64,000 nt of DNA, from positions 1 through 64,000 of IMG/VR virus record IMGVR_UViG_3300037852_000220. One strand, written 5' to 3'. Each line of letters opens with the position of its first letter. Within the stretch, counting starts at the first letter, position 1. The translations under genes were made by a program, and so were the position numbers. The notes beneath the pieces are model-generated. The model ran no database searches, had not been told where the DNA came from, and was given only the letters and a program-made list of their open reading frames with translations. Positions 58,740 to 63,340 of this stretch are shown here, piece by piece. This stretch comes from a virus.

Positions 58740-59010
58740 TTTGCAACGCAACATTAGTGAGCACTTACTCGTTGTATCGGCGCAACAATGTCGCATTTCT
58801 GCCATGCAGCAAATGACGCAATGCAGCAAGTGTTGCATTTGCGCCACTGTCGCATTTTAGCAACGCAATGTATCATTTGTGCCACATGTATCATTTGTGC
58901 CACTGTTGCGCATTTGCAACATTTGCTGCATTTCGGCGTTTGCGGGAGAGGGCGGCCGTTCGTCTGGTAGCCCTACAGTCAGAGCTACAAATGCCGAAAA
59001 TGTGGCATGT
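58740..59010. repeat. repeat-dense divergent intergenic region (candidate cos/pac and control region) including tandem 18-bp repeat 58869-58904
   Basis: TGTATCATTTGTGCCAC x2 tandem; recurrent TGTCGCATTT, GCAACGCAATG, ATGCAGCAA, GCATTTGC units and inverted GTGCCACATG/CATGTGGCA. Confidence 0.5.
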
Positions 59011-61130: not shown

Positions 61131-61153
61131 CCCTCACTTGGAGACACACAATC

Positions 61154-61387
61154 ATGCACGGCACAGGTAAGACAATGCAAGCCTACAGCGACCCGACACG
61201 CGAGAATGACCCGCACGCACTGCCCGACCTTGAAGTTTGGCACTCGGGCGACTTGCAGACGGATAGCGACCTTGACGGACCCGGCTGGTATTACTGGTTT
61301 TGCTTTCCGGGGTGCTTGCCTGATGGTGATCCGATCGGACCGTTTGAAACGCAAGCGGCCGCACTCGCTGACGCACGGGGGGAATGA
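61154..61387 (+). CDS. hypothetical protein (77 aa)
   Basis: GGAG RBS; ATG MHGTGKT. Confidence 0.4.
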   Translation: MHGTGKTMQAYSDPTRENDPHALPDLEVWHSGDLQTDSDLDGPGWYYWFCFPGCLPDGDPIGPFETQAAALADARGE

Positions 61388-61447
61388 TGGCTCACTATCG
61401 CGTTAACCTTGCCATTCCCCGCGCCGTGGTCTTGACCGTGAGGAGAA

Positions 61448-61972
61448 TTGTTCATGAACAAGTATGAATTGATCGGCGAACCGAATGAATGCGGATTGCG
61501 GCGCATTCGGTATCTGTCGGACGGTAGTTTAGGGGGATGGCTGGAAAGCGAAACGAATTTGTCGCAATCAGGCAATGCCCGCGTGTACGACGATGCCAGC
61601 GTGTTCGGCGATGCCATCGTGTTCGACAATGCCCGCGTGTTCGGCGATGCCCGCGTGTTCGGCGATGCCAGCGTGTTCGGCAATGCCCACGTGTACGGCA
61701 ATGCCCACGTGTACGACGATGCCCACGTGTTCGGCGATGCCCGCGTGTACGACGATGCCAGCGTGTTCGACAATGCCAGCGTGTTCGGCAATGCCCGCGT
61801 GTACGACGATACCAGCGTGTTCGGCGATGCCCACGTGTACGACGATGCCTACGTGTTCGGCGATGCCCACGTGTACGACGATGCCCACGTGTTCGGCAAT
61901 GCCCGCGTGTACGACGATGCCAGCGTGTTCGGCAATGCCCGCGTGTTCGGCAATGCCCGCGTGTACGAGTGA
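61448..61972 (+). CDS. hexapeptide-repeat protein, short paralog (41-aa N-domain + 22 x [G/D][N/D]A[x]V[F/Y])
   Basis: GAGGAG RBS 8 nt upstream; conserved N-terminus MFMNKYELIGEPNE; repeats encoded by 18-bp tandem DNA repeats. Confidence 0.55.
   Translation: MFMNKYELIGEPNECGLRRIRYLSDGSLGGWLESETNLSQSGNARVYDDASVFGDAIVFDNARVFGDARVFGDASVFGNAHVYGNAHVYDDAHVFGDARVYDDASVFDNASVFGNARVYDDTSVFGDAHVYDDAYVFGDAHVYDDAHVFGNARVYDDASVFGNARVFGNARVYE
61571..61966 (+). repeat. 22 tandem 18-bp repeats (consensus GGCAATGCCCGCGTGTTC / GACGATGCCCACGTGTAC)
   Basis: seen in sequence; open in all six frames. Confidence 0.8.
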
Positions 61973-61978
61973 CAAATC

Positions 61979-62197
61979 ATGCACGGCACAGTCATTAGCA
62001 AGGTTCGCGTAACACTGTCCGACGGGTCACACGTGTTTGACGTCGTGATGTCCCGACCCGGTGCTGAGGTGGTTCGGTTCAATTGTCCTGATGAACCGGA
62101 CGCAGATTCGTTCGTTACGGGTTTGCATACGCTTCTCAACTATCACACGCTAGACTGCGCGCATCGTGGTCTTGACCGTGAGGAGAATTGTTCATGA
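61979..62197 (+). CDS. hypothetical protein (72 aa)
   Basis: fills gap between paralogs; weak RBS. Confidence 0.3.
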   Translation: MHGTVISKVRVTLSDGSHVFDVVMSRPGAEVVRFNCPDEPDADSFVTGLHTLLNYHTLDCAHRGLDREENCS

Positions 62198-63120
62198 ACA
62201 AGTACGAATTGATCGGCGAGCCGAACGAATACGGATTGCGGCGCATTCGATATCTGTCGGACGGCAATTTAGGTGGGTGGTTGGAGAGTGAAACGAATTT
62301 GTCGCAATCAGGCAATGCTCGCGTGTTCGGCGATGCCCGCGTGTTAGGCAATGCCCGCGTGTTAGGCAATGCCCGCGTGTACGGCAATGCCCGCGTGTTA
62401 GGCAATGCCCGCGTGTTCGACAATGCCGAGGTGTTCGGCAATGCCGAGGTGTTCGACAATGCCCGCGTGTACGGCAATGCCCGCGTGTTAGGCACTGTCG
62501 AGGTGTTCGACAATGCCCGCGTGTTAGGCAATGCCCGCGTGTTAGGTAATGCCCGCGTGTACGGCAATGCCCGCGTGTTAGGCACTGTCGAGGTGTTCGA
62601 CAATGCCCGCGTGTTCGGCAATGCCGAGGTGTTCGACAATACCCGCGTGTTCGACAATGCCCGCGTGTACGACGATGCCAGCGTGTTCGGCGATGCCCAC
62701 GTGTACGACGATGCCCACGTGTTAGGCAATGCCCGCGTGTTAGGCAATGCCCGCGTGTTAGGCAATGCCCGCGTGTTCGGCAATGCCCGCGTGTTAGGCA
62801 CTGTCGAGGTGTTCGGCAATGCCCGCGTGTTCGACAATGCCAGCGTGTTCGGCAATGCCCGCGTGTTCGGCAATGCCAGCGTGTTCGGCAATGCCGAGGT
62901 GTCGAAAACCCCCATTTGTTTGAGTGGTTTACAGTGGTATATTACGATAACCGAAAATCATATGTTTATTGGGTGCCAAGGTCGCACACATGCCGAATGG
63001 GCGTCATTTGACGATGACACTATCAAACGCATGGATGTTCGGCATGCGCTCAAATTTTGGGAAGACAACGCGCGTATTCTTTTGACCCTTTGCGAGCGTC
63101 AAGCAAATGCCGCACTTTAG
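62188..63120 (+). CDS. hexapeptide-repeat protein, long paralog (N-domain + ~33 repeats + 70-aa C-terminal domain)
   Basis: same upstream 28 nt and N-terminal 41 aa as 61448 gene; C-terminal non-repeat domain ...CLSGLQWYITITENHMFIGCQGRTHAEW. Confidence 0.55.
   Translation: MFMNKYELIGEPNEYGLRRIRYLSDGNLGGWLESETNLSQSGNARVFGDARVLGNARVLGNARVYGNARVLGNARVFDNAEVFGNAEVFDNARVYGNARVLGTVEVFDNARVLGNARVLGNARVYGNARVLGTVEVFDNARVFGNAEVFDNTRVFDNARVYDDASVFGDAHVYDDAHVLGNARVLGNARVLGNARVFGNARVLGTVEVFGNARVFDNASVFGNARVFGNASVFGNAEVSKTPICLSGLQWYITITENHMFIGCQGRTHAEWASFDDDTIKRMDVRHALKFWEDNARILLTLCERQANAAL
62311..62904 (+). repeat. 33 tandem 18-bp repeats (consensus GGCAATGCCCGCGTGTTA/C)
   Basis: seen in sequence. Confidence 0.8.
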
Positions 63121-63340
63121 CGTCACCCATGCGGTACCGGGCACCGTGGTTGAATCGATCGTCCTGGATGCACCCACGGCGGGGGCCGCTTGCACGCGGG
63201 CCGCAGAGTGGCTATCCGTGCCCTTCCCGGACATTCTAGTGGGACAGGTAACGCTAGAGTCAGTGCGTCAGATCAGCGACCGCGAAGCGTGGTCACCCGT
63301 AACCGACGAACGGCAGGTTCTACCCGATGAACGGGCTTGA
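63107..63340 (+). CDS. hypothetical protein (77 aa)
   Basis: ORF track. Confidence 0.35.
   Translation: MPHFSVTHAVPGTVVESIVLDAPTAGAACTRAAEWLSVPFPDILVGQVTLESVRQISDREAWSPVTDERQVLPDERA

What the first reader, a model, noticed from the sequence alone, without database searches (positions are those of the whole stretch)
61154..63120. Tandemly duplicated gene module encoding hexapeptide-repeat proteins built from ~55 near-identical 18-bp DNA repeats
Two adjacent genes (61448-61972, 62188-63120) share the same 28-nt upstream segment (CGTGGTCTTGACCGTGAGGAGAATTGTTC) and a 41-aa N-terminal domain. Each then runs into 22 and ~33 perfect-register copies of an 18-bp unit encoding [G/D][N/D]A[R/H/S/E]V[F/Y/L], a beta-helix-like hexapeptide repeat. 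The long paralog keeps a 70-aa Cys/His-containing C-terminal domain that the short one lacks. DNA-level identity between units suggests recent expansion or concerted evolution, so this may be a copy-number-variable contingency locus. The short copy is net acidic and the long copy near neutral. The 18-mers could alternatively act as iterons for a DNA-binding protein; both readings are open. I do not recognise this architecture from characterised phage proteins.
Basis: seen in the sequence. Interest (0 to 1): 0.8.

Follow-up and report, generated by a model that had tools for sequence, protein, structure and literature searches.

The report
Variable-length beta-solenoid phage accessory genes
Two neighbouring genes in a block of small unannotated genes, placed like an early region, of a novel soil phage encode rod-shaped repeat proteins of a very common but functionally unstudied family (YdcK-type beta-solenoids); related phages gain, lose and resize these genes, so they are real and evolutionarily lively but not a new kind of system.

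Summary
Gene A (61454-61972, 172 aa) carries 22 in-frame 18-bp units. Gene B (62194-63120, 308 aa) carries 33. They share a 40-nt identical leader/start and a 39-aa head.

The architecture is not unknown. Both proteins hit Pfam PF18836 (YdcK beta-solenoid repeat), PHROGs 5070/7964 and the YdcK crystal structure, and more than 4,300 relatives exist.

- **Protein, not DNA element:** other lineages encode the same motif (G/D-N/D-A-x-V-F/Y/S) with different codons.
- **Array turnover:** each array uses one codon per residue. In one gut-phage group, orthologues with 100% identical flanks carry 12, 17 or 24 units.
- **Dispensable cassettes:** sister soil phages carry zero or one solenoid gene at this locus. 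Short direct repeats mark the boundaries.
- **Tail domain:** B's 71-aa tail folds confidently, has no solved homologue, and is fused elsewhere to hexapeptide or pentapeptide solenoids.
- **Rejected readings:** iterons, on/off phase variation, a retroelement and acyltransferase activity are not supported.

Function is unknown. My best inference is non-enzymatic, length-tunable binding or decoy rods used early in infection. This is a new member of a known, uncharacterised kind, of moderate interest.

The parts
61150..61166 (+). 17-nt direct repeat, copy 1 (AATCATGCACGGCACAG). It forms the left boundary of the 825-bp segment that is absent from sister phage L056 and contains the start codon of orf77.
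   Evidence: It is found only at 61150 and 61975 in the window.
61154..61387 (+). orf77, a small accessory gene of unknown function containing the motif GWYYWFCFPGCLPDGDPIGPF. It is not related to orf72.
   Evidence: At least 607 homologues of 70-95 aa exist, with no Pfam domain. Pfam, PHROGs and NCBIfam gave no hits. It is present in sisters L136-L139 and absent in L056.
61384..61432 (+). Relic 5' end (MMAHYRVNLAIPRAVV...) of the gene that directly follows orf77 in sister phages lacking solenoid genes. In the window it is cut off by the solenoid insertion.
   Evidence: Alignment of L136 with the window junctions and the L136 ORF translation.
61425..61464 (+). 40-nt stretch identical between the two copies (copy 1). 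It contains the boundary motif CGTGGT, the Shine-Dalgarno sequence GAGGAG (61440-61445) and the ATG at 61454.
   Evidence: two exact matches in the window, none in the shuffles.
61454..61972 (+). Gene A: a 172-aa YdcK-family beta-solenoid protein with a head and 22 hexapeptides but no tail. It is acidic (net -17, pI 4.4).
   Evidence: PF18836 at 8.6e-19; PHROG 5070 at 3.5e-64. Charge. Head pN/pS against B is 0.055.
61571..61966 (+). Array A: 22 in-frame 18-bp units encoding [G/D][N/D]A[R/S/H]V[F/Y].
61975..61991 (+). 17-nt direct repeat, copy 2. It forms the right boundary of the 825-bp segment and contains the start codon of orf72.
61979..62197 (+). orf72, a small gene of unknown function. 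It precedes the single solenoid gene in sisters L056 and L137.
   Evidence: No family hits.
62165..62204 (+). 40-nt identical leader/start, copy 2 (Shine-Dalgarno 62180-62185, ATG 62194).
62194..63120 (+). Gene B: a 308-aa YdcK-family beta-solenoid protein with a head, 33 hexapeptides and a 71-aa tail. It is near neutral (net -2, pI 6.2).
   Evidence: PF18836 at 4.5e-27; PHROG 7964 at 8e-101; YdcK structure 2f9c at 3e-16. The AF2 model shows a strand every 6 residues.
62311..62904 (+). Array B: 33 in-frame 18-bp units encoding [G/D][N/D/T][A/V][R/E/S/H]V[F/Y/L]. It contains a 68-nt exact internal duplication at a 90-nt offset.
62905..63117 (+). Tail domain of B (residues 238-308): four beta-strands followed by three helices, with an invariant 'IGC' and a conserved Trp. 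It belongs to a phage-specific, unannotated domain family.
63107..63340 (+). Downstream 77-aa gene. Its homologue follows orf77 directly in sisters that have no solenoid genes. Its 5' end overlaps the end of gene B, and the right boundary motif CCGTGGTT lies at about 63145.

Best explanation
Shown:
- The locus holds two paralogous protein-coding genes of the YdcK-type hexapeptide beta-solenoid family (Pfam PF18836; PHROGs 5070 and 7964).
- They lie in a + strand block of small genes of unknown function in a novel myovirus-like soil phage. I read this block as the early region from its position only.
- Each protein has a conserved 39-aa head and an uninterrupted coil of 22 (A) or 33 (B) hexapeptides. 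Ala at position 3 and Val at position 5 are conserved, as expected for core residues. Positions 1, 2, 4 and 6 vary, as expected for surface residues.
- B also carries a compact 71-aa tail domain.
- The arrays evolve by in-frame gain and loss of 18-bp units and multi-unit blocks. That keeps codons uniform within an array while array length changes quickly.
- The genes are dispensable cassettes in a recombination hot spot. Sister phages carry zero or one solenoid gene there, and the boundaries are marked by a 17-nt direct repeat and the short motif CGTGGT.

Inferred:
- With three hexapeptides per turn, as in YdcK and LpxA, the coils would have about 7.3 turns (about 35 A) in A and 11 turns (about 53 A) in B.
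- The proteins are not enzymes. They are rigid rods of tunable length, made early in infection, whose repetitive and diversifying surfaces bind or decoy a host component (host takeover or counter-defence).
- The tail acts as the cap and/or oligomerisation module.
- A is a tail-less derivative, maintained under selection, with an unusually acidic surface.
For: Family membership:
- PF18836 scores 66 and 92 bits against a cut-off of 30. PHROG hits reach 8e-101.
- YdcK structures 2f9c/2pig match at 3e-16, followed by LpxD and LpxA.
- The NCBIfam YdcK family is the best hit, although far below its equivalog cut-off.
- More than 4,310 relatives exist. The same head-repeat-tail layout recurs in them.

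Solenoid fold:
- The AF2 model has a strand every 6 residues through residues 40-237.

Selection acts on the protein:
- Head pN/pS is 0.055 at pS 0.395.
- Other lineages encode the same motif with different codons.

Array turnover:
- Val is GTG in 55 of 55 units, Ala is GCC in 49 of 50, and Leu is always the rare codon TTA.
- Unit pairs differ by 85 synonymous and 3,600 nonsynonymous codon differences.
- Block duplications are present within the arrays.
- Orthologues L040, L026 and L011 have 100% identical 400-nt flanks but 12, 17 and 24 units, differing by clean blocks of whole units.

Cassette behaviour:
- Shown by sister contigs L056, L137, L136 and L138.

Early or accessory position:
- The window's gene map.
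- Homologues lie before or next to the RNA polymerase gene in an Autographiviridae phage (Aer_P220) and in Xanthomonas phage CP1, and next to the repressor in Liberibacter phage SC2.

Not an enzyme:
- Hexapep PF00132 scores below threshold (21.7 against 27). The coil is uninterrupted and has no loops.

Rod plus constant tail:
- The tail family has 2,959 representatives, always at the C-terminus, fused to either period-6 or period-5 solenoids.
- Characterised pentapeptide solenoids dimerise through C-terminal helices and act through their shape and charge (PMC10886550, PMC8145042).
Against: - No experiment, and no paper found in the library, gives a function for any member.
- No partner gene is conserved across lineages. 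PADLOC gives no hit.
- The full-length model has only moderate confidence (mean pLDDT 63). The fold search puts YdcK first but not significantly (E=0.31), so the left-handed three-per-turn geometry rests on sequence homology alone.
- Early expression is inferred from position. The promoter scan found nothing above chance.
- A three-unit (one-turn) periodicity is not statistically detectable.
- Unit counts in short-read assemblies can be wrong. All five sister contigs that reach an array end inside it.
Confidence: 0.5

Rival explanations
1. DNA mimicry: the solenoid rods, especially the acidic tail-less A, imitate the size and charge of B-DNA and so block a host DNA-binding enzyme such as a restriction, BREX, RecBCD or gyrase-type target. 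Pentapeptide-repeat proteins (MfpA, Qnr) and Ocr/ArdA work this way.
For: A is net -17 with pI 4.4, and its array alone is net -14. The gene position is the kind typical of Ocr-like genes. The tail domain is shared with phage pentapeptide-repeat proteins, and the characterised members of that class are dimeric DNA mimics (PMC8145042, PMC10886550).
Against: The family as a whole is near neutral, at a mean of -1.3 charges per 100 aa, and only 10% of members fall below -5. B's array is net +1 with an Arg ladder. A lacks the tail that would provide dimerisation. No phosphate-like periodic charge pattern was demonstrated.
Confidence: 0.15
2. Bactofilin-like polymer: the proteins self-assemble end to end into filaments inside the cell. 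Some public records annotate homologues as 'polymer-forming cytoskeletal protein'.
For: B scores 34.5 bits against Pfam Bactofilin PF04519, above the cut-off of 27.9. Some phage homologues carry that name. A has an uncapped C-terminal coil end.
Against: The YdcK repeat model scores far higher (92 bits). A scores only 14.9 bits for bactofilin. The folded head and tail caps (pLDDT 75-96) would be expected to block end-to-end stacking of B. Bactofilin matches to any 6-residue-period beta-helix are likely to be generic.
Confidence: 0.1
3. Neutral or selfish repeat expansion: the solenoid tolerates unit slippage, so array length carries no function, and gene A is simply a decaying partial duplicate.
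For: Array length varies widely among otherwise identical phages. The genes are dispensable among sisters. A lacks the tail.
Against: Both heads are under strong purifying selection (pN/pS 0.055). A keeps an intact Shine-Dalgarno sequence, start codon and a 172-codon frame. The variation among units is almost all nonsynonymous and at intermediate frequency, whereas the only purely synonymous variants seen (GGT, GCT) are singletons. The family persists in thousands of phages.
Confidence: 0.15
4. Left-handed beta-helix acyl- or acetyltransferase, as several public records annotate homologues.
For: Weak matches to LpxD, LpxA and other acetyltransferases. Public annotations include 'putative acyltransferase' and 'trimeric LpxA-like'.
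Against: Hexapep PF00132 scores below threshold. All NCBIfam enzyme models score far below their cut-offs. The coil is a perfect uninterrupted repeat with no insertion loops or extra substrate-binding domain. Hypervariable length is hard to reconcile with a fixed active site.
Confidence: 0.04
5. The 18-mers act at the DNA level, either as iterons or binding sites, as an on/off contingency switch, or as the target of a diversity-generating retroelement.
For: The units are extremely uniform at synonymous sites. Most variant bases are adenines.
Against: All 47 copies lie inside the two ORFs. Other lineages keep the peptide motif while changing the DNA. The unit length is a multiple of 3, so no frameshift switching is possible. 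No reverse transcriptase was found among the ORFs tested with Pfam or PHROGs (not every ORF in the window was tested), and there is no template copy. The window's real noncoding repeat cluster lies elsewhere, at 58,740-58,945.
Confidence: 0.03

Closest known systems
YdcK (E. coli / Salmonella; PDB 2F9C and 2PIG; Pfam PF18836 'YdcK beta solenoid repeat'; NCBIfam NF040481)
   Same: It shares the hexapeptide repeat type and the N-terminal 'GGW..(e/d)..N(L/V)LSQ.G' head. The sequence match is significant over 224 residues (3e-16), and PF18836 scores above its gathering threshold.
   Different: The window genes are not orthologues of YdcK: they score 77 and 92 bits against the 350-bit equivalog cut-off. 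YdcK's coil is irregular and not DNA-repetitive. YdcK has no known function either. The phage proteins have a different C-terminal tail and hypervariable length.
PHROG 5070 / 7964, phage proteins of unknown function (for example Streptococcus phage Sfi19 orf229, Xanthomonas phage CP1 ORF31/32, Liberibacter phage SC2 gp145/150, Aeromonas phage Aer_P220)
   Same: Same family and same head-repeat(-tail) layout. The genes occupy similar positions, near the RNA polymerase gene or the repressor. Several copies are often adjacent.
   Different: No relative is close, with at most about 57% identity over long segments. The window's arrays are among the most regular. None of these proteins has been characterised.
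Pentapeptide-repeat proteins MfpA / Qnr / AlbG (right-handed quadrilateral beta-helix DNA mimics)
   Same: They are also rod-like beta-solenoids with a C-terminal helical module. Phage pentapeptide-repeat proteins carry the very same tail domain as gene B.
   Different: The period here is 6, not 5, and PF13576 scores below threshold. B is not acidic. No link to gyrase or DNA mimicry was tested.
Bactofilins (PF04519)
   Same: They are also triangular beta-helices with roughly 6-residue periodicity. B passes the Pfam cut-off.
   Different: The match is much weaker than to PF18836. Folded caps replace bactofilin's disordered termini. Polymerisation was not tested.
Left-handed beta-helix acyltransferases (LpxA, LpxD, GlmU C-terminal domain)
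   Same: The fold class is the same by sequence similarity.
   Different: There are no active-site loops or partner domain, and all scores are below family thresholds. The proteins are probably non-catalytic.
In-frame variable-number tandem-repeat genes of prophages (for example the hyvI/hyvII genes of Liberibacter prophages; recalled from memory, not tested here)
   Same: They show intragenic, in-frame, nearly identical tandem repeats whose number differs between closely related phages.
   Different: The repeat unit and the protein are different. The Liberibacter hits found here (SC2 gp145/150) were not shown to be hyv genes.

Membership tests
YdcK-type beta-solenoid repeat family (Pfam PF18836) | Score above the Pfam gathering threshold (30 bits) with multiple repeat matches | tested here: met
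   A scores 66.2 bits (8.6e-19, 5 stretches). B scores 92 bits (4.5e-27, 6 stretches).
YdcK-type beta-solenoid repeat family (Pfam PF18836) | Sequence homology to the solved YdcK structure, including the N-terminal GGW...LSQ.G head | tested here: met
   2f9c_A matches at E=3e-16, aligning query residues 22-245 to YdcK residues 39-267.
YdcK-type beta-solenoid repeat family (Pfam PF18836) | Left-handed beta-helix with three hexapeptides per turn | tested here: inconclusive
   The AF2 model shows a strand every 6 residues, but its mean pLDDT is 63. Foldseek ranks YdcK first only at E=0.31. Handedness was not measured.
YdcK orthologue (NCBIfam NF040481 equivalog) | Score at or above the 350-bit cut-off | tested here: not met
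   76.9 and 92 bits.
PHROG 5070 / 7964 (phage proteins, unknown function) | Significant match to the HMM profile | tested here: met
   E-values from 3.5e-64 to 8.1e-101.
Hexapeptide acyltransferases (Pfam PF00132 and related enzyme families) | Score above threshold, together with catalytic loops or a substrate-binding domain | tested here: not met
   PF00132 scores 21.7 bits against 27. The enzyme NCBIfam models score far below their cut-offs. The coil is uninterrupted.
Bactofilin (PF04519) | Score above the gathering threshold (27.9 bits) | tested here: inconclusive
   B scores 34.5 bits and passes. A scores 14.9 bits and fails. The match is much weaker than to PF18836.
Bactofilin (PF04519) | Polymerisation into filaments | not testable with these tools
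   This needs electron microscopy or light scattering on purified protein.
Pentapeptide-repeat proteins (PF13576 / PF00805) | Five-residue period and a score above threshold | tested here: not met
   The period is 6. PF13576 scores 24.2 bits against 27.
Phase-variable contingency locus | Changes in repeat number switch the reading frame or promoter on and off | tested here: not met
   The unit is 18 nt and lies within the coding sequence. Relatives differ by whole units and stay in frame.
In-frame copy-number-variable (VNTR) gene | Unit number differs between otherwise near-identical genomes | tested here: met
   This was shown for orthologues in another lineage: 12, 17 and 24 units with 100% identical flanks. 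It could not be determined for this phage's own sisters, because all five of their contigs that reach an array end inside it.
Iterons / DNA-binding repeat array | Noncoding or origin-associated copies, with conservation of the DNA rather than the peptide | tested here: not met
   All 47 copies lie inside the ORFs. The peptide motif is conserved across lineages with different codons.
Diversity-generating retroelement target | A reverse transcriptase and a template repeat nearby | tested here: not met
   No reverse transcriptase was found among the ORFs scanned, though not every ORF in the window was scanned. There is no extra copy of the unit.
DNA-mimic anti-restriction proteins (Ocr / ArdA-like, functional class) | Strongly acidic surface that mimics the DNA backbone, and binding to DNA enzymes | tested here: inconclusive
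   A is strongly acidic (-9.9 per 100 aa). B (-0.6) and the family mean (-1.3) are not. Binding cannot be tested with these tools.

The most novel reading that the evidence does not exclude
A modular class of phage 'solenoid rods' may exist, built from a conserved head, a beta-helix of freely tunable length and surface, and a conserved tail. In this class the solenoid can be either penta- or hexapeptide because only its rod shape and surface ladder matter. The proteins would act as length-matched decoys or mimics, of nucleic acid or of a filamentous host target, against host defence or DNA-handling machines. Rapid unit gain and loss and cassette exchange would be the phage's way of retuning them. 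The acidic tail-less A and the neutral tailed B could be a two-component or dual-specificity pair.
Probability: 0.15. Interest if true: 0.7.

Novelty: new member of a known kind. Interest (0 to 1): 0.35.

Why it matters
The family is very large. There are more than 4,300 close hits. The tail domain alone has about 3,000 cluster representatives at 50% identity, and at least 95 of the phage records searched carry a match. Yet it has no assigned function and is often mis-annotated as glycerol kinase, MFS transporter, acyltransferase, cytoskeletal protein or even CRISPR spacers.

This locus and its sisters give a clean natural experiment. Closely related phages (about 87-98% identical in the shared stretches) carry zero or one solenoid gene where this phage carries two. 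In another lineage, array lengths range from 11 to 31 units. That contrast is the kind used to pin down phage counter-defence genes.

If the proteins do turn out to be tunable decoys, array length would be a new, easily read marker of phage-host arms races. Practically, the arrays also break short-read assemblies, so unit counts in databases should be treated with caution.

Tried and rejected
- **Exact-sequence look-up of gene B** (both possible starts): not on record.
- **Near and distant DNA search of the locus against phage records:** only repeat-driven matches at 64-75% identity.
- **Full-length AF2 model and Foldseek against the PDB:** the model is too weak (pLDDT 63) for a significant match.
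- **Idea that one turn (three units) is the evolutionary unit, with face-specific chemistry:** lag-3 similarity is not elevated. Only a 9-unit lag in A (P=0.0016) and a 5-unit exact duplication in B stand out. The enrichment of Arg on one face of A is marginal, so I dropped it.
- **Conserved neighbour gene:** none found across lineages.
- **Gut-phage tail as a divergent version of the same tail domain:** hhalign probability 0.4%, so rejected. C-terminal modules differ between subfamilies.
- **PADLOC:** no hit. **Rfam and tRNA scans:** nothing. **Promoter and terminator scan:** nothing above chance.
- **Literature:** eight searches found no functional study of the family.
- **Link to the Liberibacter hyv genes:** not established.
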